A stretch of 64,000 nucleotides of DNA from Mobula hypostoma (GCF_963921235.1 NC_086097.1:10292001-10356000), one strand, 5' to 3'. Numbered from the stretch's first letter, positions 2,189-52,542 are shown. A program made the numbers and translations. The notes: generated by a model from the letters alone, not told the origin.

Positions 2189-4662
2189 CATAATCAGTGT
2201 CTTCTATTTTACTTACCTGACCTGTGAACTTGCTTCCTTGTAACAAAATGGAAAAGGTAAAGGGCTGAAGAAGAAAGTAACTGATAGTTCAATAGTTCCA
2301 TTTAATATCAGAGAATGTGTACAATATACAACATGAAATTCTTGCTCTTCGTAGGGTGCCCCAAAGAATGAATGACAGTAAAAATGTTAGATCCCACAGC
2401 CCCCCACTCCCACCCTGTCATGCACAAGCAGCAGCGAACATTACCTCTCCGCCTCCCCCACTTACTACTGCAAAAAGCATCGGCACCCACCTTACAATAG
2501 CAAAGCCCCAAGAGAGGCCATGATCTGCGGTAACACAAAAACTAATTGTTCATCCAACAATTTGACCTGCTGCAGGGTCTTTCTCCACCTAATAAAGTGG
2601 CACAGAGGTGTCACACAGCGAGAGGGGAGACTAACAAAACAAAAAAAAACAATTCGCTGATTGATGTTCAAGTCAGGCATGTCATTATTTTTCTAAGCTC
2701 TCTGACTCGAGAACTGGCAACAAAGTCTCCCCCACCATCAAGAGAAAGAGAGAGAGTGATTCATCGAATACAGAGACCTCCAAAAGCTGATCTGCTGTTC
2801 ACGATATTCCATTTCCTCTCTTAATGCTTCAATTGGTGACACCAGCATAGAATCAGTTCATCTACAGCACCACAATGCCTCAGCACCCCGACAGCTCGTC
2901 TTCTAGACTACGCCCTTGGGATATCGAGAAACAGCTGGTCAGTTCGCCCCAGGTGTGGGAACCATCACCATAAAGAACCATAGTTTGTGCAGTTGCATGT
3001 CAAGGGCACTGACAGAACACCTTGAAAAGGAAAGAAGGAGACAGTAAAGATAAAGATTAAGTTGTCCCTGCAGATGAGCTCAAAGAAGCTGCAGGCCAGT
3101 GCCATTGTAGTTCTGCCTAATGAGAGGAGAGTGGACCATGGGAGAACTCTGGATTTCTAGCATCTGCAGAATCTCTGTAAAGTTGTGTTTCACAGTGTAA
3201 TACTCCAATATATGCAAATAGTGCTTTGTAGTATCTAACTTACCATTTTCTTGCCTTTAAAATCGTCTATATCTGTACAGCATTATGGAGCTTTTGGAGA
3301 TTGGAGGTGTAAATGTCTTTGGCATAAGCTTGTCACATAAAGTAGATTATTACTATTATTTCTCATTCCTAATAAGATGCTCATGTCTAGGTGTTTAGAA
3401 TATCCCTTTTGAAATTACACCAAGATTAACAATCTTTGATGTCAGCCATTTCATGATGAAAGAAAATATATTGGAGAAAAGTGTAAGTTAAAACTTTTTA
3501 CAGTTCTCTTATCATGAGTGAAGATGTTTCTGCTTGTTCAGTATATTCTATAATAAAGCAGAATTTCACAAGCTTTTAATGAAAAAGAAAATATTATCAG
3601 ACAAAACACTTTAAAATCTAAATACTGCAGTATACAATGTCCAGTCTGATACAAAACCACAAATAAAAACATTTTCAATCCGATAACAAGCTCATAATGT
3701 TGGTTATTATACAGACAGTGCAGATAATCATTGAACGTAAAACATTGAACATAAAACAGTACAACAGAGGAATATTGGGAGAAGTTAAGAGGACACCAGA
3801 GGGGGATTTCTCCCAGTTCATCTGCAAAACAGCTTAAATTCTTTTCTTTAATGTCACCTATTTCCTTTTCACGGTGGTTAGAGTCCTTTCAGAGTCCATA
3901 ATCTACAGATGCAATCAGACTGCGGTTCTTCATGGCAGTGAGCTCCCGCTCTCTCAGCTTGCCGAGTGGTCATTTTTGATACCCTCAGGAGGGGGCTCGG
4001 GGATGTGTGCCTTCGAAGTGTGGCCTTGTGTGGCCCTGTGGATGGCTGATTCCTTGCTGGTGTTACCAGATGAAGGTTTGTAGGAGATCAGAACATCGAG
4101 ACAGCGTGTGCTGCTGTCCGAGGCGATTGCACTCGAGCGACAGCTCTCTCTCTCAGTAGTGAGGGAGAATTTGCTGCCGATTCTCGAGTCAGAGAATGCA
4201 GAATAAAGCTGATGCTGCAGACTGCAACATGGAAACTGAGCTGTTGGTTTTATTCTTGCGGTTACTGAGAGAGAGAGCCTGTGGCATGTCGAACTGCTGG
4301 ATCAACAGTGGTTTGGTGAACTCTCAATCATGGTCCCTCTGACAGCTTTGCTATTGCTTGAACACTGGGTGGCAGGTTTCTGAAGCTTTTGCTGAGGTTG
4401 GTGGGAGCAGGGCTTGTGTGTAGGAGGGTGGAGATTGGGGCTTTGGAGTTCTAACCTTTTTCTGTCATTCATTCTTTGGGTTTTTCTTCTGTTTCATGGA
4501 TGTCTGCAGACAGTAAGAATTTCAGGTTGTACATTGTATAGATCCTCTGATATTAAATGGAACTATTGAACCATTGAACAGGCCATTCAGCCCACAATGT
4601 TGCATTAAACCAATTAAATTAATAATCAAATGACTAACTAAACTAATTTCTTCTGCCAACAC

Positions 4663-6710
4663 ATTGTGTGGATTTCTGCATAGGTACGTTCCAATGAGAC
4701 AGGAAAGTTATGGTAGGGTACAGGAACCATGGTGTACAAAGGCTGTAATAAATCTAGTCAAGAAGAAAAGAAAAGCTTACAAAAAGTTCAGAGAGCTAGG
4801 TAATGTTAGAGATCTAGAAGATTATAAGGCTAACAGGAAGGAGCTTAAGAAGGAAATTAGGAGAGCCAGGAGGGGCCATGAGAAGGCCTTGGCAGGCAGG
4901 ATTAAGGAAAACCCCAAGGCATTCTGCAAGTATGTGAAGAGCAAGAGGATAAGATGTGAAAGAATAGGACCTATCAAATGTGACAGTGGGAAAGCGTGTA
5001 TGGAACCGGAGGAAATGAGATACTTAATAAATACTTTACTTCAGCATTCACTATGGAAAAGGATCTTGGTGACTGTAGTGCTGATTTGCAGCGGACTGAA
5101 AAGCTTGAGCATGTAGACATTAAGAAAGAGGATGTGCTGGAGCTTTTGGAAAGCATAAAGTTGAATAAGTCGCCGGGACCGGATGAGATGTACCCCAAGC
5201 TACTGTGGGAGACGAGGGAGAAGATTGCTGAGCCTCTGGTGATGAACTTTGAATCATCAATGGGGACAGGAGAGGTTCCAGAGGATTGGAGGGTTGCGCA
5301 TGTTGTTCCTTTATTCAAGAAAGGGAGTAGAGGTAGCCCAGGAAATTATAGACCAGTGAGTCTTACCTCAGTGGTTGGTAAGTTGATGGAGAAGATCCTG
5401 AGAGCCCGGACTTATGAACATTTGGAGAGGTATAATATGATTAGGAATAGTCAGCATGGCTTTGTCAAGGTCAGGTCGTGCCTTACGAGCCTGATTGCAT
5501 TTTTTGAGAATGTGACTAAACACATTAATGAAGGAAGAGCAGTTGATGCAGTGTATATGGATTTCAGCAAGGCATTTGATAAGGTACCCCATACAAGGCT
5601 TATGAGAAAGTAAGGAGGCATGGGATCCAAGGGGACATTGCTTTGTGAATCCAGAAATGGCTTGCCCACAGAAGGCAAAGAGTGGTTGTAGACGGGGCAT
5701 ATTCTGCATGGAGATTGGTGACCAGTGGTATGCCTCAGGGATCTGTTCTGGGACTCTTACTCTTCGTGATTTTTATAAATGACCTGGATGAGGAAGTGGA
5801 GGGATGGGTTAGTAAGTTTGCTGATGACACCAAGGTTGGAGGTAGTGTGGAGGACTGTCAGAGGTTACAGCAGGACATTGATAGGATGCAAAACCGGGCT
5901 GAGAAGTGGCAGATGGAGTTCAACCCAGTTAAGTGCGAAGTGGTTCATTTTGGCAGGTCAAATATGATGGCAGAATATAGTATTAATCGTAAGTCTCTTG
6001 GCAGTGTGGAGGATCAGAGGGAGCTTGGGGTCCGAGTCCATAGGACACTCAAAGCAGCTGCGCAGGTTGACTCTGTGGTTAAGAAGGCATACAGTGTATT
6101 GACCTTTATTAATCATGGTATTGAATTTTGGAGCTGAGAGAATTTTGCAGCTATATAGGACCCTGGTCCCTGCACCTTGAGTACTATGCTCAGTTCTGGT
6201 CTCCTCTCTACAGAAAGAATGTGGAAGTCATAGAAAGGGTGCAGAGGAGATTTACAAGGATGTTTCCCGGATTGGGAAGCATGCTTTATGAAAACAAGTT
6301 GAGTGAACTCGACCTTTTCTCCTTGGAGTGGAGATGGATGAGAGGTGACCTGATAGAGGTGTATAAGATGATGAGAGGCATTGATCGTGTGGATAGTCAG
6401 AGGCTTTTTCCCAGGGCTGAAATGGTTGCCACAAGAGGACACACGTTTAAGGTGCTAGGGTGTAGGTGCAGAGGAGATGTCAGGGGCACGTTTTTTACTC
6501 AGAAAGCGGTGAGTTCGTGGAATGGGCTGCTGGCAACAGTGGTGGGGGCGGATACGATAGTGTCTTTTAAGAGACTTTTCGATAGGTACATGGAGCTTAG
6601 AAAAATAGAGGTCTATGGGTAATTACTAGTAATTGCTAAGGTAGGGACATGTTCGGCACAACTTTGTGAGCCAAAGAGCCTGTATTGTGCTGTAGGTTTT
6701 CTATGTTTCT
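4663..6710 (+). mobile_element. CR1/HER1-like LINE, 5'-truncated
   Basis: ORFs 4664-5116, 4996-5613, 5682-6137, 6128-6622 (KSPGPDEMYP, NYRPVSLTS, MDFSKAFDKVPH, PQGSVLG, FADD); TTCTATGTTTCT tail; AACAC at 4658-4662 and 6711-6715 as TSD. Confidence 0.95.
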
Positions 6711-6715
6711 AACAC

Positions 6716-6795
6716 CAGGGCTTTCTAATTTGGGGTCCATGGACCCCTTGCTTAATAATATTGGTCTATGGCATAAAACAGGTTGGGAACCTCTG
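6716..6795. mobile_element. ~80-bp hAT-type MITE
   Basis: CAGGG...GGAACCTCTG termini; 8-bp TSD GCCAACAC (4655-4662) / GCCTACAC (6796-6803); the CR1 landed at the left TSD copy. Confidence 0.7.
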
Positions 6796-7394
6796 GCCTA
6801 CACAATGTCCAAAGATCTTTTTCATTCTCTTATGTGATTGAAATCTACTTAAAAGATCAAAAGCTAGACTGAAAGCACTTCGGGTAGTCTTGATTTTGAG
6901 CTGCCTTATTCAATGAATTCTTGTAAATCAAGGATTAATGTTCCACACTGAACTGTTATTAAGTTCTTGCAGTCAATAGAAATCAATATCCAAAAAGTTA
7001 ATTAAAAAATAGAGTGTAAACATCTCTAGCAAGTATGCATTTAAGTCAAAATTGAACCACATTACTCAGGTCAGTTGACAACACTGGAAAAGACCTCACG
7101 CTTTAAAAAGTGCACAAACCATAAGACATAGGAACAGAATTTACATTTATTATCAAAGTATGGATGCAGTATACAACCCTGAGATTTGTCTCCCACTGAC
7201 AGCCATGAAACAAAGAAAGCAATGGAACCCATTTAAAGAAAAATATCAACAAAATAAACAAATCATACAAACGATAAAAATACAAGCAAAATTCACAGAA
7301 TATAAGACCAAAGTGGAAAGAAGAAAAAAAAATTGCCTTTTAAACTCATGAGAGAGCATAGGCCATCAACTTTTTACTGTCGATGTTTCTGTAG

Positions 7395-7528
7395 CAGGCA
7401 ATTTCTTTTTTACAAGGTCGAGCTCAACGCTCAACCCAGCATGGATGGAAAGCATGCCAGGGGAGCTGGCTGGGTTTGAGCTCGGCAGCCTTCACTCCGA
7501 AGTCCGGCGCTGATGCCACTACGCCACC
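7395..7528 (-). mobile_element. tRNA-derived SINE, decayed relative of 16835-17114
   Basis: Minus strand reads GGTGGCGTAGTGGCATCAGCGCCGGACT...GCTTTCCATCCATGCTGGGTTGAG, matching head and body of the 16835 SINE. Confidence 0.6.
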
Positions 7529-7585
7529 TTTGAATCTTTGGTCTTATGTTCTTAAGTGTTAAAGCTACAAATACAAAAGGTAAGA

Positions 7586-7617
<32 letters not shown>

Positions 7618-7839
7618 GATAAATATTGAGAGCATGAGATGAAGCACCCTTGAAAGTGTGTCCATTAGTTGTGGGAACATTTCAATGACTGGGCAAGTGA
7701 AGTTGAGTGAAGTTATCCCCACTTGTTCAAGAGCCTGATGTGATGGAAGAAAGTGAAGCTTCCCAAAGAAATGAAGTTATTAAGATAAAATTCACTATTC
7801 ATCAAAATAATGGTTACTTTGGCATAATGATAAAATGTG

Positions 7840-35890: not shown

Positions 35891-38679
35891 CTGCTTTATA
35901 GATTACAGTCTGGGTGCCATCTTTTCAGTCATATACCATTCACTGTCTAAGTGATTAAAATCAGAAACCAGAAAGGGTTCAGTTGTTCAATACTTCAGAT
36001 TAATATCAGAATTTATACAGTATAGAAGCTGAAATCCTTACTCTTCACAGATATCCATGAAACATAAAAAACCCTAAAGAATGAATGGTAGAAAAATCCT
36101 CCCCAGAGCCTCCCACCCCCTCCCACATATAAACAGTAGCAAAAAGCATCAGCCCTCCCACTCCCACTCCCTCCACTTGTTCCAGAAAACCATCCACCAT
36201 ACAAGTAATAGCAAAGCTCCCAAGGACCATAATCTAGAGTCAATCGAAAACCTACTGTCCAGGCAACACTCTGACATCTCAGACAGGCTCCCTATCTCAC
36301 TAGAGCGGGAGAAAGAGAGACCTTACTCCTATCACAGTGAGAGGGGAGGCCATCAGCTTGCTGTTTCGTGGTTACAATCTGCCATGTCACTTCAATGAGT
36401 CCGCCTTACTCCCCAACTCGAGGTCCAATAGGTTCTCACTCACCATCAAGAGAGAAAGCAAGAGAGAGAGAATGCAGGGGCCTTCCATCAGTTGCGCACA
36501 CCACCCGCTGTCTTGATGTTTCAATCTCTGACGCTGCTTCAGTCGACAACATCGGTGAGGAATTGAGTCATCCACAGGCCCACTTTCCACTTTGAGGGAT
36601 AGAGTGGGTGATCTGTAAGCTACTCCAATGTGATTATTTGAAAATCCATTTAGGTTTCTAATACACTTCAAACTCATAAGATAGGGTATTGTTAGAATCA
36701 GAGAATGTGCTTCAGGTTTTGTTCTTTAACGGAAAACCATGGCTAGGGTGGGGGCAGGGAAAAATAGTAGTTAGTGTAAAGTTAATACAGTGCCAGTGTT
36801 CACTGATTGGAGTTCAAATCCTACCACTGCCTGTAAGAAGTTTATACGTTGTATCAGTGATTACATGGGTTTCCTCCAGGTGCTCTGGTTTCCTCCTACA
36901 TTCCAAAGATGCACAGTTAAGGTTAATAAGTTGTGGCATACTATGTTTGTGCTGGAAGCATGGTGACACTTGCAGGCTGCCCAGAGCTGTGCATTTAATA
37001 TATCAGTAATATTTGAACAATACTGTGAGCATGTTATTTGATTGAGCATTTTTTGTTGCTTAAATGATTCATTATGGTTTTATATATGAAGAATCTGAAT
37101 TACATATGTCATCACTCCACCACATCATATGTGCGTACTTTGCTTAAAGCAAAACTAAAATGTACACAAATTATTCCCAGCTCAGTGTTTTCCTGTCAAT
37201 TAGTTTTATGTTTTGGAGTTACAAAACATAGAAGTGGTGACAAAGAGGCTTTAAGTGAACATGAGATGATTACCTACTTGTTAAAAATACAGCAAGATGT
37301 TTGAGTTTAGAAAAAAACATAGTGAGAAATGGTTGAGTAAAAAAAACAGCGCAGTATACCCTTCTTCAGAAAAGCACATGGTCAAGCTTTAAAGAAAAGG
37401 CAGAAAATGGACAAATTCGCAGATTCATAAACGGTGAGTAACAGGTGACAATAATCATTTTTTAAAAAGCTGAAATGGCCAACTACATCACAAAGATTGA
37501 CGCATTTCACAAGAGATAACTGGCTCATGTACACTGCTCTAATTCAACAGTGTTTTGAAGCAAGTGAAATAGCCAGTGAGAAATGAGTACCAGTTCTGCT
37601 GAGTCCATTGGATTTAAAGCCTTACAGTTTGCTTAGACACTTGACTGCTCAAATCAGATTATCATTGCTGATCTTATGAGAAATATCTAGAACTGAAACC
37701 ATTGTTGATTGCAGAATGCTTTAGGTTTCATAAGTAGAATCAAAAGGAAGGGGAGACCACTTCGGGATATGTGGCTGAATTGAAAAGATTGTCTGAGCGT
37801 TGTCAGTTCAGTGATGGCCTAGATGCACTGAGAGATTGTTTAGTTTGTGGAATCTCACAAAAAAAGCATTCAAAAACGGCGCCAACTGAAGCACAACTTA
37901 CATTTAAAAGAGAAGTTAAAATTGCTGTTTCAATGGAAACTGGAGACAGAGATAAAATTAAGTTGCAGTCAGGAATGAAAGGGAGCATGAACAAAATTAC
38001 TACATCTAAACAGAAGTTGGTCAGGCCAAATGAATTGTGTTACCGTTGTGGCAGGGGCTCAGAAACAAAAACCAATGCAGGGTTTAAAGGCAAACTTGTA
38101 TAAAATGCAACAAATACAAAGAGCTTTTCAGGCAGACTAAAATAAATGGACTCTACAGGGAAGAGAAAAAGCTAAAAAGTCAAGTTACAGTTTCAACAAG
38201 AGCTCTAATCTGCATGCTGTTGATTAAAAAAAACATGATAATGATGAGAGTGACACAGGACTGGGTACACTTGAGACTTACATTGTGAAAACTAACAAGA
38301 GACAAGCAATATGGCGTACATCAGAAGTGAACAGCAAATTGTTTAAAATGGAACTGGACACTGGCTCGGCTATTTCGGTTATTCCACAAAATGAGTTTTA
38401 ATGGCATTTCACAGATATGGAACTGAAGGTTGCAGATATCCAATGAAGAACTGATACTGGGGAAAGATAACTCCTGTGGGAATGACATCCATAACAGTGA
38501 AATACAGCAACCAACAAGTCTGCTTGGGCTCGCCTGTAAAAACAGGAGGATCAGCATTGTGGGGCTGTGATTGGCTGAGACAACTACAACTTGATTGGAG
38601 AGGTACCCACCAGTTACATGCTACATCCCCTGAAATAGAGTTAACTGAAAGTGAGTTACTGGATGACGCCACAACTGTC

Positions 38680-39758
38680 TCCATGTTGTACACCAGGAAC
38701 CATTGCCCAACAGAGGGCAAACAGGTGGTTAGTGCCAATGTCTGTGCCTCTGGTTGGAAAGCATATTGAACCAAGGAAGGACCATGCTGCTCAGAAGAAT
38801 CATGAAAATGACAAAAGCAGTGGTTCGACTTTAACTGTTCATGTAGGCAACATATCTGAGAAAGCTTCTGATCTGTAAATCAGGCAATAATTTGCAAAAT
38901 GTGGCTTGGTTTTACCCAAAAAGAGAGTTCAGGGAGTTTAAGAAAAGTTGCAAACATTCAGCTTTTGTGAGTAAAAAGAACCAGAAACTACTCCGCACGC
39001 ATTAAGGTTATTGCATGAGCTTCAAGTGGCAGACAAAAAGGTGCTTGCAAAAGTAGAGGTAAAGACCAAAGTCCGGCTGGATGCATGGAAGGTCAAAAAG
39101 ACAGGAGTCAATGGGGAAAGGAAAACAGAGGATTTGTCAGATGATGTGGATGAGGAAACCAAGAGGAGTGATCAGATTGTAAAGGGAGCAACAGAAGGAT
39201 TAAAAAGTAGAATACTCCAGTGAATTAAACGCATCATACCAAGATTAAGAGTCACATCCAAGAAAGAAGAAAAAAGAGAAGAAAGAGGAAGGTGATATAT
39301 GTGCTATGGAAATGGAAGAGGATAATGATAGCAACCTTGAGAAATTATCAAATGCAGAGAACTCATGCACGTTCTCATTTTTACTTTAAGCGGGGTGAAC
39401 ATGTATAATGCAGAGTCAGGTTGACATATGCCACTCACATAGAAATTAGAAGAAGAATGGGAGGTGAGAGACAGAAAGACAACAAGTTGCAAAGGAGAGA
39501 AAGGATGGAGAGAAAGAAAGTGAATGAGAAAGGGAAAGGTGGGAAATAGAGAAGGAACATGAAAAAGAAAAAATGCAGGATTAGGACCGTGAGTAAGACC
39601 ATAATATGGATCGTAAGAGAAAGAAGGATAAATAAAGGGAGCGCGACTGAGAAAGAAACTGAGAACTGGATAAAGAGTGAGAAAGATGCAGGGACCAGAA
39701 GAGAAACAAGGATCAAAGTAAATCCAGAGAAAAAAGCCAAGAAAAGGAGAAGAAAAGT
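38680..39758 (+). pseudogene. RBM25: Processed RBM25 pseudogene fragment (RRM and RE/RD-rich region) inside the Gypsy provirus
   Basis: One frame: VGKHIEPRKDH...TVHVGNISEKASDL*IRQ*FAKCGLVLPKKRVQGV*EKLQTFSFCE*KEPETTPHALRLLHELQVADKKVLAKVEVKTK...DEETKRSDQIVKGA; after a frameshift EYSSELNA...HPRKKKKEKKEE...MEMEED. Matches recalled vertebrate RBM25. Confidence 0.9.
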
Positions 39759-39959
39759 GCCTTGAGGTGTTGGAACCACTTCCTGCAGTCTCAGAGTCTG
39801 CTCCTGCAACCACCATGGAGAAGGTCCCGGAACCAGAGATTGTTTTCCCAGCCACGAGTCTCACCAGCTAAGCAGACTTTATCAGGAAAGGTGTTATCCT
39901 GCAAGAGTAAGAAATCCTCCAAAGCAATTAAAATTTTAAGCCTGAATGGAACATTTTAA

Positions 39960-40220
39960 AATGGAATTGACTTTATTTCTTACATCCTTCACATACATGA
40001 GGAGTAAAAATCTTTGCATTACATCTCCAACTTAAATGTGCAATGTGCAATCACAGTAATTTATAATAAATAGAACAGTCAATGTAATATAGAGTACACT
40101 TAAATCAGTGTGAGTTCATCAGTCTGATGGCCTGGTGGAAGAAGCTGTCCCGGAGCCTATTGGTCCTGGCTTTTATGCTGTGGTACCATTTCCCAGATGG
40201 TAGCAGCTGGAACAGTTTGT
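39960..40220 (-). mobile_element. Rex1-type 3' tail fragment inserted in the provirus
   Basis: AATAAAGTCAATTC-type tail in reverse; CCTGGTGGAAGAAGCTGTCC motif similar to other Rex tails in the window. Confidence 0.5.
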
Positions 40221-40904
40221 TTACTACACTGTGACTGTCTATATAGTAGTTATATAGTGTTATATAGTATATCGTATACATAGCATATGTAGATCAATAG
40301 AGATGCATTCTCTATTGAGAAGGAGTTTATAGCTAAGCTGGGAGGAGTGTTGTGTATTTAATGTCAGTAATATTGTGGGTATGTTGTTTGTTTGAGCATG
40401 CTTTGTTTAAATGATTCATTATGGTTATATGTAGTAAGTACTTGAGCAGCATATGTCATCATAACTGCATCATACATATTCACCTCGCTTAAAGTAAAAC
40501 TGAGAACGTACATGAGTTCTTCTCAGTTCAGTGTTTTCCTTTTGATTAGTGATTTTTTTCAGATTTTGCAGTTACAAAACATAAACCCAGCACAATCCAT
40601 GTTGATTTGATGTGATGCATTTCATTATGTTTTGATGTTTCGATGTGCATATGACAAATAAAAATATTCGGAAAGTCACTGAAGTGGTAAGAGTGCTTTA
40701 TTTTAGTTTCTCCGAATGCAGGAAGTTTCAGATTTGGCCTTACTTGTGAGATTAATATATTTCAATGGCAGGTCCAGTGAGAGTTAATTTATGTTCTGCA
40801 CATTCTTAACACCCCTTTTCCAAAGAAAAGGTAAACACCATTTTTTCATATATATTTTCTCTGCTCTCTGCGAAACCCTAAACGTGTCCACATACTTAAA
40901 ATGT

Positions 40905-42647
40905 CCAGTCCCTGTATACTTCCATCCCCCATCAGGAAGGTCTCAAAGCTCTACGCTTCTTTTTGGATTCCAGACCCAATCAGTTCCCCTCTACCACCAC
41001 TCTGTTCCGTCTAGCGGAATTTGTCCTTACTCTTAATAATTTCTCCTTTGGCTCCTCCCACTTCCTCCAAACTAAAGGTGTAGCTATGGGCACCCGTATG
41101 GGCCCTAGCTATGCCTGCCTTTTTGATGGCTTTGTGGAACAATCTATGTTCCGTGCCTATTCTGGTATCTGTCCCCCACTTTTCCTTCGCTACATCGACG
41201 ACTGCATTGGCGCTGCTTCCTGCATGCATGCAGAGCTCGTTGAATTTATTAACTTTGCCTCCAACTTTCACCCTGCCCTCAAGTTTACCTGGTCCATTTC
41301 CGACACCTCCCTCCCCTTTCTAGATCTTTCTGTCTCTGTCTCTGGAGACAGCTTATCCATTGATGTCTACTATAAGCCTACTGACTCTCACAGTATCTGG
41401 ACTATTCCTCTTCTCACCCTGTCTCTTGCAAAAACGCCATCCCCTTCTCGCAATTCCTCCGTCTCCGCCACATCTGTTCTCAGGATGAGGATTTTCATTC
41501 TAGGACGAGGGAGATGTCTTCCTTTTTTAAAGAAAGGGGCTTCCCTTCCTCCACTATCAACTCTGCTCTTAAACACATCTCTCCCATTTCACGTACATCT
41601 GCTCTCACTCCATCCTCCCGCCACTCCACTACGAATAGGGTTCCCCTGGTCCTCACCTACCACCCCACCAGCCTCCGGGTCCAACATATTATTCTCCGTA
41701 ACTTCCGCCACCTCCTACGGAATCCCACCACTAAGCACATCTTTCCCTCCCCACCCCTCTGCATTCCGCAGGGATCGCTTCCTACGCGACTCCCTTGTCC
41801 ATTCGTCCCCCCCATCCCTCCCCACTGATCTCCCTCCTGGCACTTATCTGTGTAAGCGGAACAAGTGCTACACATGCCCTTACACTTCCTCCCTTACCAC
41901 CATTCAGGGCCCCAAACAGTCCTTCCAAGTGAGGCAACACTTCACCTGTGAGTCGGCTGGGGTGATATACTGCATCCGGTGCTCCTGATGTGGCCTTTTA
42001 TATATTGGCGAGACCCGACGCAGACTGGGAGACCGCTTTGCTGAACACCTACGCTCTGTCCGCCAGAGAAAGCAGGATCTTCCAGTGGCCACACATTTTA
42101 GTTCCACATCCCATTCCCATTCTGACGTGTCTATCCATGGCCTCCTCTACTGTAAAGATGAAGCCACACTCAGGTTGGAGGAACAACACCTTATATTCCG
42201 TCTGGGTAGCCTCCAACCTGTTGGCATGAACATCGACTTCTCTGACTTCCGCTAATGCCCCACCTCCCCCTCATACCCCATCTGTTACTTATTTTTATAC
42301 ACACATTCTTTCTCTCACTCTCCTTTTTCTCCATCTGTCCCTCTGAATATACCTCTTGCCCATCCTTTGGGTCCCTCCCCCGCTTGTCTTTCTTCCCGGA
42401 CCTCCTATCCCATGATCCTCTCGTATCCCTTTTGCCTATCACCTGTCCAGCTCTCGGCTCTATCCCTCTCCCTCCTGTCTTCTCCTATCATTTTGGATCT
42501 CCCCCTCCCCCTCCAACTTTCAAATCCCTTACTCACTCTTCCTTCAGTTAGTCCTGACGAAGGGTCTCGGCCTGAAACGTCGACTGCACCTCTTCCTAGA
42601 GATGCTGCCTGGCCTGCTGCGTTCACCAGCAACTTTCATGTGTGTTG
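40905..42647 (+). mobile_element. Penelope-like retroelement, 5'-truncated (RT + GIY-YIG endonuclease)
   Basis: VQSLYTSIP, GVAMGTRMGPSYA, RYIDD, FLDLSV, GVIYCIRCS*CGLLYIGETRRRLGDRFAEH; two frameshifts and one TGA; 17-bp direct repeat CCACATACTTAAAATGT (40888-40904, 42648-42664). Confidence 0.93.
42549..42586 (+). ncRNA. Minimal type I hammerhead ribozyme motif
   Basis: TAGTC / CTGACGA / AGG-gtctcgg-CCT / GAAA / CGTC / GACTG: complete core, stems I and II, palindromic ACGT in place of stem III. Confidence 0.75.
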
Positions 42648-52090: not shown

Positions 52091-52542
52091 TTTTCCCCAG
52101 GGTTAGGGAATCAAGAAGTAGAGGGCAGATACACTTATGTTTTGTAACTGCAAAAATGAATTGAAAGAAAAAGGCCGGAGCCCGCAAGATGCGTGTAAAG
52201 TTCGTTTTTACTTTAAGTGAGGAACACACGTAGGATGCGGTGCCATAATGCTGAATCTCATTCATGTACTTTTATAAATCCTTAATGAATTATGGAAACA
52301 ACAAAGAATGTTTACTCTAACAATATATTTGCAATATTACTCAAATATTACTGAAAAATTAAATGCACAAGAGGGACGTATTTAATAAAACCCTAAGGAG
52401 CAACCTTTTCATCCACAACGTGATTGGTATATATTATGAACTACCAGATAAAGTGGTTGAGACAGATACGTTAAACCAATTTAAAAGGTACTTGGACAGG
52501 TGCATGGACTGAAAAGGCTAAGAGGGAATAGGAGCCGAAAAA

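What the first reader, a model, noticed from the sequence alone, without database searches (positions are those of the whole stretch)
36985..40585. Gypsy provirus that swapped its pol core for a captured RBM25 cDNA
Seen: LTR - PBS-like site - gag - protease (DTGS) - about 1.1 kb of non-retroviral sequence - integrase 3' tail - PPT - LTR, bounded by a CCCAG TSD, with RT, RNaseH and the integrase core missing. The insert translates collinearly to the RRM and RE/RD-rich region of RBM25 with no large introns and no poly(A) tail or TSD of its own. Established: RBM25 is a multi-exon splicing regulator, and LTR elements can capture host mRNA by template switching during reverse transcription. Inference: a two-switch recombinant replaced pol with host cDNA and integrated as a non-autonomous chimeric provirus. 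In-frame stops and visibly diverged LTRs indicate an old, dead copy, but a family may exist.
Basis: partly seen in the sequence, partly recalled or inferred. Interest (0 to 1): 0.85.

Follow-up and report, generated by a model that had tools for sequence, protein, structure and literature searches.

The report
Gypsy retrotransposon family carrying RBM25 cDNA
This is one old, dead copy of a jumping-gene family, more than a thousand copies strong in this (probably shark) genome, whose own enzyme genes were replaced long ago by a spliced piece of the host's RBM25 splicing-factor gene: a known kind of gene capture, seen here at unusual scale and with readable junctions.

Summary
Window 36985-40585 reads LTR, PBS-like site, gag, protease, 1,081 nt of intronless RBM25 cDNA, integrase C-terminal tail, PPT, LTR, flanked by CCCAG. 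RT, RNase H and the integrase core are absent.

The insert aligns collinearly to 8 exons of the native RBM25 gene of the same genome. That gene spans 23 kb with introns.

The window copy is not the primary recombinant. The same 5' junction occurs 1,407 times in the genome (24-mer, up to 3 mismatches; reversed control 0). The RT-bearing partner junction occurs 3,007 times.

The 5' junction falls exactly on the 5' boundary of a native internal exon. Spliced contigs from four runs show that this exon is used. This points to read-through transcription and cryptic-donor splicing, not a random template switch.

The 3' junction lies inside an exon at about 6-9 nt of microhomology, as a template switch would leave. 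This is the retroviral oncogene-capture route, here in a Ty3/Gypsy element.

Copies decay neutrally. LTR identity is 76.5% (K2P 0.29).

Verdict: real, a new member of a known kind, of moderate interest.

The parts
36980..36984 (+). 5' target-site duplication CCCAG
   Evidence: Same pentamer at 40586-40590 directly outside the LTR ends
36985..37235 (+). 5' LTR
   Evidence: 76.5% identical to 40348-40585. The same LTR is found on other copies and on the autonomous partner L064
37237..37250 (+). PBS-like site (TGGTGAC...); tRNA not identified
   Evidence: TGG motif 1-2 nt after the LTR end in the window, L044, L006 and L018
37475..38290 (+). gag remnant with zinc knuckle, broken by stops and frameshifts
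   Evidence: tblastn of Gypsy Gag-Pol P0100 residues 14-~290. The gag ORF of sister copy L044 is 61% identical to P0100
38291..38676 (+). Protease (DTGS at 38357-38368) and the PR-RT linker, up to the capture junction
   Evidence: P0100 residues ~290-419. 78-80% nt identity to the RT-bearing partner copies L047 and L052 up to the junction
38677..38724 (+). First captured RBM25 exon (48 nt); its 5' end is the Gypsy/RBM25 junction
   Evidence: 94% identical to native G000:C1:99832633-99832586, which is flanked by ttttcag| and |gtaacc. Spliced to the next exon in 4 of 4 runs
38725..39365 (+). Five further RBM25 exons (RRM and following region), introns absent
   Evidence: Collinear blastn to native exons at 99829160-99813121, 79-88% identity. 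Weak RRM_1 Pfam hit. RBM25 hits
39366..39439 (-). Private inverted fragment of the element's own LTR, not in sister copies
   Evidence: 85% identical to the reverse complement of 40443-40520. Exon neighbours are directly adjacent in L003 and L024
39440..39757 (+). RBM25 RE/RD-rich exon plus 33 nt of the next exon; its 3' end is the RBM25/integrase-tail junction
   Evidence: Native 99810688-99810351 (68.6%, gappy) and 99809260-99809228 (93.9%). Homology stops inside the exon
39758..39939 (+). C-terminal tail of Pol (end of integrase) to the Pol stop
   Evidence: Matches the tail that follows the integrase C-terminal domain in autonomous copies L070, L071 and L073. P0100 residues 1303-1319
39963..40219 (-). 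Later insertion of an unrelated repeat (looks like a LINE 3' end; that label is recalled, not tested)
   Evidence: Absent from sister and autonomous copies, where 39962 abuts 40220. An 80% identical copy lies at G000:C1:99891614-99891899. No Pfam hit
40335..40347 (+). Polypurine tract
   Evidence: Purine run directly before the 3' LTR start TGTTGT
40348..40585 (+). 3' LTR
   Evidence: alignment
40586..40590 (+). 3' target-site duplication CCCAG

Best explanation
Window 36985-40585 is one decayed copy of a high-copy, non-autonomous Ty3/Gypsy family that arose from a single capture of host RBM25 mRNA. Inferred sequence of events: (1) An autonomous Gypsy element sat upstream of, and in the same orientation as, a 48-nt internal exon of RBM25, most simply in the intron before it. 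(2) A read-through transcript from its LTR was spliced from a cryptic donor (...ACT|GT) in the protease-RT linker to that exon's acceptor. The downstream RBM25 introns were then removed normally. (3) This gag-PR-RBM25 RNA kept the packaging region and was co-packaged with a normal element RNA. (4) During minus-strand synthesis, RT copied the 3' LTR, PPT and integrase tail from the normal RNA. It then switched to the chimeric RNA at a short purine-rich microhomology, AAGAAA(A)GG, inside an RE/RD-region exon. (5) The resulting LTR-gag-PR-RBM25-IN tail-LTR element lacks RT, RNase H and integrase, and was multiplied in trans by its RT-bearing partner family to well over a thousand copies. Shown: the anatomy, intron loss, shared junctions, copy numbers, native use of the 48-nt exon, and neutral decay. 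Inferred: the read-through/splice step, co-packaging and the order of events.
For: RBM25 identity: one search gave 98 hits, with the informatively named ones RBM25. The native multi-exon gene lies at G000:C1:~99791418-99840648(-), and 8 exons are collinear with window 38677-39757. One origin: 19 of 19 loci and 27 of 28 copies align across the 5' junction. The junction 24-mer occurs 714+693 times at up to 3 mismatches, at least 100 of them exact, against a reversed control of 0. The 54 of 54 scored protein matches are intronless and start at gar RBM25 residue 60 or later. 5' junction: 7 of 7 chimeric copies switch to RBM25 at the first base of the exon, and 10 of 12 autonomous copies read ...ACAGCA|GTGTTC at that point, so GT is shared. 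The native exon is preceded by ttttcag. A GT..AG joint from this exon to the next is seen in 4 of 4 runs, and a loose end leads to an upstream 30-nt exon, so the exon is internal and in native use. A shark RBM25-like model (P0105) starts within this exon's translation. 3' junction: RBM25 homology ends mid-exon. Autonomous L073 reads ...AAAGAAAGG|TGTCCAG, the native gene reads ...GAAGAAAAGG|GATAGG, and chimeras carry the RBM25 left side with the TGTCCAG right side. Partner: L064+L052 share LTR, gag and PR at 74-80% and continue into RT. The partner junction 24-mer occurs 3,007 times, control 0. PR and RBM25 are in one ORF in L040, L041, L043, L044 and L045, 5 of 6 full copies. In-lineage capture: copies share KDHAAQ...ESDESS-type residues with this genome's own RBM25, not with the Heptranchias or gar proteins. 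Decay: copy-to-copy differences are equal at codon positions 1, 2 and 3 (0.159/0.169/0.154).
Against: The proposed donor ACT|GTGTTC is weak by the MAG|GTRAGT consensus (consensus recalled; no splice-site scorer was available). No element or solo LTR remains in the native intron upstream of the 48-nt exon; the only family LTR in the 100 kb examined is about 36 kb upstream of the first mapped coding exon, on the opposite strand. The autonomous sequence at the 3' junction rests on one copy at nucleotide level (L073), with L070 and L071 supporting only at protein level. The two 24-mers differ at 5 positions, so some cross-counting at up to 3 mismatches is possible. The runs used for the splice joint are labelled 'RNA?' by guess only, although they do contain spliced joints.
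Confidence: 0.72

Rival explanations
1. Both junctions arose by microsimilarity-driven template switches between a packaged, fully spliced RBM25 mRNA and the element RNA (the LTR-mediated retroposition model of Tan et al. 2016). On this view the 5' switch landed on an exon boundary by chance.
For: This is the documented route for LTR-flanked retrocopies in animals (PMC5131818: outline and passages read). The 3' junction fits it. GT is shared at the 5' junction. The proposed splice donor is weak.
Against: The switch point coincides with the first base of an internal exon. With a 2-nt ambiguity and about one boundary per 135 nt of this cDNA, chance is roughly 2% (my estimate). The native mRNA upstream of that exon (...CCACTCCAG) is absent from all 7 chimeras examined. 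The 5' microsimilarity is only 2 nt, against a median of 6 in Tan et al..
Confidence: 0.15
2. The 5' junction is a forced copy-choice. RT ran off the 5' end of an RBM25 transcript that begins at the 48-nt exon and jumped to the element RNA.
For: It would also place the junction at the exon's first base. A shark gene model (P0105) has its start codon inside this exon.
Against: The exon has a polypyrimidine-AG acceptor. In 4 of 4 runs a contig continues upstream into a 30-nt exon about 4.8 kb away, so it is an internal exon in the transcripts seen.
Confidence: 0.07
3. An ordinary LINE-made RBM25 processed pseudogene landed in an already pol-deleted Gypsy copy, and that copy later spread.
For: LINEs are active in this genome: a LINE with APE-RT ORFs interrupts copy L043, and a repeat was inserted at 39963-40219.
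Against: The insert ends in an internal exon far from the mRNA 3' end. It has no poly(A) and no flanking duplication. It starts at an exon boundary fused in frame to the protease linker. The Gypsy sequence is not contiguous across it, since about 830 residues of Pol are replaced.
Confidence: 0.01
4. The chimeric ORF (Gag-PR-RBM25) is or was a host-domesticated gene rather than a parasite.
For: PR and RBM25 are in frame in 5 of 6 full copies. 4 of 54 matched RBM25 stretches have no stop.
Against: There are more than a thousand dispersed, LTR-flanked, mutually ~80% identical copies. Differences are equal at all codon positions. 50 of 54 stretches carry 1-13 stops. The window copy is broken throughout.
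Confidence: 0.02

Closest known systems
LTR-mediated retroposition chimeras (Tan et al. 2016, Genome Res; PMC5131818, outline and passages read)
   Same: An intronless partial host cDNA replaces part of the internal ORF of an LTR retrotransposon. Both LTRs are kept, the cDNA has no poly(A) or TSD of its own, there is microsimilarity at a fusion point, the fusion is in frame, and the chimera can go through further retroposition cycles as a non-autonomous element.
   Different: Their model uses two microsimilarity switches, whereas here the 5' junction is at an exon boundary with only GT shared. [quoted passage not shown] The host is a cartilaginous fish, a group not in their survey (fly, mosquito, zebrafish, chicken, mouse, human).
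Oncogene transduction by retroviruses (read-through or spliced virus-host RNA plus non-homologous recombination during reverse transcription; Swain & Coffin 1992, recalled and cited in PMC5131818; read-through plus splicing and helper dependence described in PMC4276931, passages read)
   Same: The 5' junction is made at RNA level using a host splice acceptor. The 3' junction is inside a host exon at short homology. Pol is lost, and the element depends on a helper.
   Different: The carrier is a Ty3/Gypsy retrotransposon with no env seen, and it spread in the germline. The captured gene is a splicing factor fragment (RRM plus RE/RD), with no sign that it is an oncogene. The outcome is a genomic repeat family, not an infectious virus stock.
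Bs1 of maize (Elrouby & Bureau 2001, 2010; known to me only from the mention in PMC5131818 and from recall)
   Same: An LTR retrotransposon whose internal region carries host gene fragments, and which lacks pol.
   Different: Bs1 combines pieces of three genes and is low-copy (recalled). This family carries one gene fragment and is high-copy.
HERV-K / FAM8A1 processed pseudogene in human (Jamain et al. 2001; known only from the mention in PMC5131818)
   Same: A vertebrate LTR element with a captured host cDNA and microsimilarity at the fusion points.
   Different: A single untranscribed locus, not an amplified family.

Membership tests
Ty3/Gypsy (Metaviridae) LTR retrotransposon | Two direct LTRs with TG...CA termini and a short target-site duplication | tested here: met
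   LTRs 36985-37235 and 40348-40585. Family termini TGTTGT...CATAACA. CCCAG on both sides. The window's own first three LTR bases and last bases are mutated.
Ty3/Gypsy (Metaviridae) LTR retrotransposon | PBS next to the 5' LTR and PPT next to the 3' LTR | tested here: inconclusive
   A TGGTGAC... motif sits 1-2 nt after the LTR in 4 copies, and there is a purine run at 40335-40347. The priming tRNA was not identified.
Ty3/Gypsy (Metaviridae) LTR retrotransposon | Gag and aspartic protease homologous to Gypsy Gag-Pol | tested here: met
   P0100 residues 14-419 align to 37509-38679. Sister gag is 61% identical to P0100. DTGS is present. Pfam RVP hit is only weak: E 0.001 on L040, below the cut-off.
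Ty3/Gypsy (Metaviridae) LTR retrotransposon | Pol order PR-RT-RNase H-IN | tested here: met
   Met for relatives: P0100 has PR 297-387, RVT_1 504-645, RNase H 708-839 and integrase 950-1148. Own-genome partner copies show PR then RT (L052), RNase H (L067, L068) and the IN C-terminus then tail (L070-L073). The window element itself lacks RT, RNase H and IN, so it is a non-autonomous derivative.
LTR-mediated retroposition chimera (Tan et al. 2016) | Intronless host cDNA replaces internal element sequence; no poly(A) or TSD of its own | tested here: met
LTR-mediated retroposition chimera (Tan et al. 2016) | Microsimilarity at both fusion points | tested here: inconclusive
   3': about 6-9 nt, AAGAAA(A)GG. 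5': only GT, and the point is an exon boundary.
Retroviral-type transduction (read-through/splice plus one recombination) | 5' junction uses a host splice acceptor | tested here: met
   The junction is the first base of a native internal exon with an AG acceptor. The exon is spliced natively. Donor use in the element is inferred, not shown.
Retroviral-type transduction (read-through/splice plus one recombination) | Defective genome propagated by a helper of the same family | tested here: met
   Pol core absent. An RT-bearing partner has the same LTR, gag and PR. Trans-mobilisation itself is inferred from the copy number.
Retroviral-type transduction (read-through/splice plus one recombination) | The carrier is an infectious retrovirus (env) | not tested
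   No env was seen in P0100 or in the partner pieces examined, but no full partner copy was read.
LINE-mediated processed pseudogene | 3' end of the mRNA with poly(A), flanked by its own TSD | tested here: not met
   The insert ends in an internal exon with no A-tail and no flanking repeat.

The most novel reading that the evidence does not exclude
The captured RBM25 module (RRM plus RE/RD tract, translated in frame after Gag-protease) was not passive cargo. It helped the defective element compete for its partner's machinery, for example by RNA binding or packaging, by nuclear-speckle targeting, or by interfering with splicing or RNA surveillance. That would explain why a pol-less chimera reached about half the copy number of its helper. 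The evidence does not exclude this: the 5' fusion is in frame in 5 of 6 full copies, and all sampled copies keep the RRM exons, although they were sampled by that region. Post-insertion decay is neutral, which says nothing about the active master lineage. The RE/RD tract comes in discrete length classes, so at least that part was dispensable.
Probability: 0.1. Interest if true: 0.8.

Novelty: new member of a known kind. Interest (0 to 1): 0.5.

Why it matters
Gene capture by LTR retrotransposons is documented in animals mostly as young, single-copy events. Retroviral transduction is known mostly from tumour viruses. This locus shows a germline Ty3/Gypsy element that captured a host splicing-factor fragment by what looks like the retroviral route (splice plus one template switch). 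It then became a major repeat family in a vertebrate genome: at least 1,407 junction-bearing copies, roughly 0.1% of 3.48 Gb if most are near full length (my estimate).

Both junctions can be read against the living parental gene and the helper family in the same genome, which gives an unusually clean natural record of the mechanism. It also matters for annotation: thousands of RBM25-like pseudo-exons can mislead gene prediction and copy-number analyses of RBM25 in cartilaginous fishes.

Tried and rejected
- Pfam on the window's own gag and PR pieces gave nothing useful. Identity rests on homology to P0100.
- The first autonomous candidate, from the best RT hits (L046), belongs to another Gypsy family (67% over 160 nt). 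15 of 17 further RT-hit candidates did not match the chimeric protease; only L047 and L052 did.
- Both of those partner copies are internally deleted, so other copies had to be sampled for the integrase tail. L069, L072, L074 and L075 gave no tail match.
- No fused protease-RBM25 protein was found among named proteins (166 hits, 120 listed, all RBM25-type). None was found among the 150 listed of 902 representatives either: best stretches cover either query 1-93 or 103-281, never both. This is weak evidence, because dead copies are rarely predicted as proteins.
- No RNA holder is on record as RNA. Runs X1-X4 are 'RNA?' by guess, and I used them only for the spliced joint.
- Literature searches found no description of this family: RBM25 + retrotransposon + LTR gave 14 papers, none relevant by title or abstract. 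'LTR retrotransposon' + 'gene capture' + shark gave 4, none relevant. RBM25 + shark gave 4, none relevant. Repbase/Dfam could not be consulted.
- Earlier scan notes gave nothing on this genome or sequence.
- The higher copy-to-copy identity of the RBM25 part (0.82-0.86, against 0.71-0.80 for LTR, gag and PR) is not evidence of constraint, because the copies were picked by their match to that part.
- Whether RBM25 was in frame with the integrase tail in the founder is unresolved. The A-run at the junction differs in length among the window, L042 and L045.
Full report
**What is at the coordinates**

The window is G000:C1:10292001-10356000 of a 3.48-Gb, 200-contig genome.

- Two direct repeats, 36985-37235 and 40348-40585, are 76.5% identical over 230 aligned columns (39 transitions, 15 transversions, K2P 0.29).
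- Compared with sister copies, the family LTR begins TGTTGT and ends CATAACA.
- CCCAG lies directly outside both ends (36980-36984 and 40586-40590).
- A TGGTGAC... motif follows the 5' LTR, and a purine run precedes the 3' LTR.
- A complete Gypsy-type Gag-Pol from the protein database is P0100, 1,319 aa. Its Pfam order is protease, RVT_1, RNase H, integrase.
- P0100 aligns to the window over its residues 14-419 (37509-38679: gag, zinc knuckle, protease with DTGS at 38357-38368, and the linker) and over residues 1303-1319 (39886-39936).
- Nothing in the window matches its residues about 420-1250.
- Stops and frameshifts are spread through all parts.

**The insert is RBM25 cDNA from this lineage**

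The 38732-39223 translation, with X at stops, found 98 proteins at E of 0.001 or better. Every informatively named one is RNA-binding protein 25, and the best E is 6.8e-51.

I located the native gene with the PWI-domain end of a gar RBM25. It lies at G000:C1:~99791418-99840648 on the minus strand and has many exons.

Window 38677-39757 aligns collinearly to eight native exons spread over 23.4 kb (99832633 to 99809228). Identities are 94, 85.6, 78.8, 85.6, 87.6, 82, 68.6 (the gappy RE/RD exon) and 93.9%. Seven introns of about 1.1 to 6.1 kb are missing. There is no poly(A) and no separate duplication.

Chimeric copies share lineage-specific residues with this genome's own RBM25 (KDHAAQ..., ESDESS-type). 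They do not share them with the Heptranchias or gar proteins. The capture therefore happened in this lineage.

**It is a family, not a one-off**

- The 1,081-nt insert alone gave 2,885 first-look candidates. All 40 scored places, one of them the window itself, match at 78-83% from the first bases of the query.
- In 19 of 19 fetched loci the alignment runs from protease across 38676/38677 into RBM25, and most also have the integrase tail and LTRs.
- With six more full loci, 27 of 28 copies cross the 5' junction. The exception, L024, is truncated.
- With a gar RBM25 as query, 54 of 54 scored places are intronless stretches beginning at residue 60-148. None reaches further upstream, and 50 of 54 carry 1-13 stops.
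- A 24-mer spanning the 5' junction occurs 714+693 = 1,407 times at up to 3 mismatches, at least 100 of them exact. The reversed control gives 0.
- The corresponding protease-to-RT 24-mer of the RT-bearing relatives occurs 1,525+1,482 = 3,007 times, control 0.
- The two patterns differ at five positions, so a little cross-counting is possible.

The window copy is thus a descendant of one capture event.

**The helper**

Locus L064+L052 (G000:C36) has the same LTR, gag and protease at 74-80% nucleotide identity and continues into reverse transcriptase. Its RT start and RNase H end each have about 2,000 first-look candidates at 85-89% identity. Copies L070, L071 and L073 show the integrase C-terminal domain running into the same tail that follows RBM25 in the chimera. 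All partner pieces I read carry stops, so the helper also looks dead.

**The 5' junction**

Twelve RT-bearing copies and seven chimeric copies are alignable up to ...GCCACA(A/G)C(T/A). After that point:

- 10 of 12 RT-bearing copies continue GTGTTCAAGG (linker toward RT).
- All 7 chimeras continue with the RBM25 exon, GTCTCC....

In the native gene that exon is preceded by ttttcag and followed by gtaacc.

I laid four runs on a 3.9-kb native stretch. In 4 of 4 runs a joint skips 3,425 nt with CT..AC ends on the plus strand, which is GT..AG on the gene strand. It joins this 48-nt exon to the next exon, at depths 58, 70, 50 and 190. A loose end leads upstream to a 30-nt exon at 99837508-99837479. 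A shark RBM25-like model (P0105) begins inside the translation of this exon.

The chimera therefore starts exactly at the 5' edge of an internal exon that the host uses. I estimate the chance of a random breakpoint doing so at about 2%. The simplest reading is splicing from a cryptic donor (ACT|GT) in the protease-RT linker of a read-through transcript.

The donor is weak by the consensus (recalled). No element remains in the native intron today. Both count against this reading, but mildly.

**The 3' junction**

RBM25 homology stops inside an exon. The native gene reads ...GAGAAGAAAAG|GGATAGG. Autonomous L073 reads ...GTTAAAGAAAGG|TGTCCAGA. The chimeras carry the RBM25 left side joined to TGTCCAGAG-type sequence. 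The overlap AAGAAA(A)GG is about 6-9 nt, the signature of a microhomology-guided template switch.

Together, the two junctions match the route known for retroviral oncogene capture. That route combines read-through and splicing for the 5' side with recombination against a co-packaged helper genome for the 3' side. My sources are Swain & Coffin 1992 (recalled; cited in PMC5131818) and passages of PMC4276931. The two-switch model of Tan et al. 2016 (PMC5131818) fits less well.

One partner-type copy, L068, joins RNase H directly to the last RBM25 bases plus tail. It looks like a recombinant between helper and chimera, which fits co-packaging.

**Coding state and selection**

- Protease, the 48-nt exon and the RBM25 RRM region lie in one open frame in L040 (287 aa), L041, L043, L044 and L045 (281 aa), that is 5 of 6 full copies.
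- The window also reads through the junction, before a 1-nt shift.
- Whether the RE/RD region was in frame with the integrase tail in the founder is unresolved.
- Copy-to-copy differences in three RBM25 exons are equal at codon positions 1, 2 and 3 (0.159, 0.169, 0.154; 28-29 copies), so decay after insertion is neutral.
- Copy-to-native differences are 0.101, 0.096 and 0.175. The excess at third positions is what purifying selection on the native gene would give.
- The spacing between the fifth captured exon and the tail falls into classes: 39-56 nt (5 copies), 82-197 (8), 282-341 (5), 412-446 (4), 517-523 (window and L042) and 950 (L009, probably interrupted). L043 is interrupted by a LINE. 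Variants with shortened RE/RD tracts therefore also spread.

**Age**

Intra-element LTR K2P is 0.29 for the window and 0.26, 0.29 and 0.43 in three sister copies. At assumed neutral rates of 1 to 2.5 x 10^-9 per site per year (assumption, not measured for this organism), that is roughly 60-150 million years. The RBM25 part suggests somewhat less, about 8% per copy, but those copies were selected for similarity.

**Later events in the window copy**

Bases 39963-40219 are an unrelated repeat that sister and partner copies lack. Bases 39366-39439, between two RBM25 exons, are an inverted fragment 85% identical to the element's own 3' LTR and are absent from sister copies.

**Known or new**

Capture of host cDNA by LTR elements is established in yeast, plants and animals, and some chimeras re-transpose (PMC5131818). 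I found no description of an RBM25-carrying family or of such a capture in cartilaginous fishes in the searchable library. Repeat databases could not be checked.

I rate it a new member of a known kind. It is notable for its copy number, its in-frame Gag-protease-RRM fusion, and its junctions, which point to the retroviral read-through/splice route in a Ty3/Gypsy element.

Noticed in passing
window 40900-41988 (+): A 362-aa open frame with RT-like motifs (YIDDC) followed by a GIY-YIG-like stretch. I recall this pattern from Penelope-like elements, but Pfam gave no hit at E of 0.01 or better, so the label is untested.
   Followed up: partly
window 52136-52369 (-): Another LTR of the same Gypsy family (69% identical to 36988-37230) in reverse orientation. 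It is a solo LTR or part of a further copy.
   Followed up: no
window 39366-39439: A roughly 74-nt inverted copy of the element's own 3' LTR segment 40443-40520 (85% identity) sits between two RBM25 exons, in this copy only. It is closer to the 3' LTR than the two LTRs are to each other, and its origin is unexplained.
   Followed up: partly
window 36812-36909: The sequence just upstream of the element matches repeats elsewhere (L040 471-568 at 75.5%; native region 99890013-99890064 at 81%). The element therefore landed in or beside another interspersed repeat.
   Followed up: no
L068 (G000:C36:48039853-48040599) 1-270: A partner-type copy in which the end of RNase H is joined directly to the last RBM25-derived bases plus the integrase tail. 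It looks like a recombinant between the helper and the chimeric element.
   Followed up: partly
G000:C1:99837508-99837479 and 99832633-99832586 (native RBM25, L033/L086): The native RBM25 5' region has small internal exons of 30 nt and 48 nt that are joined in RNA-like contigs. They do not fit in frame after the MSFPPH... exon, which ends in phase 1. RBM25 therefore has alternative 5' exon structures here, and the exon for the canonical TPMIP...-type segment was not located.
   Followed up: partly
L043 (G000:C18:37199000-37207400) about 4600-7700: A LINE with long open APE and RT frames (685 and 331 aa) interrupts one chimeric copy inside the RBM25 part, so non-LTR activity postdates the family.
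   Followed up: no
L046 (G000:C45:27884200-27889400): A different, younger-looking Gypsy family with an 858-aa open PR-RT-RNase H-IN frame. It is about 68% identical in protein to P0100 and is not the partner of the chimeric family.
   Followed up: no
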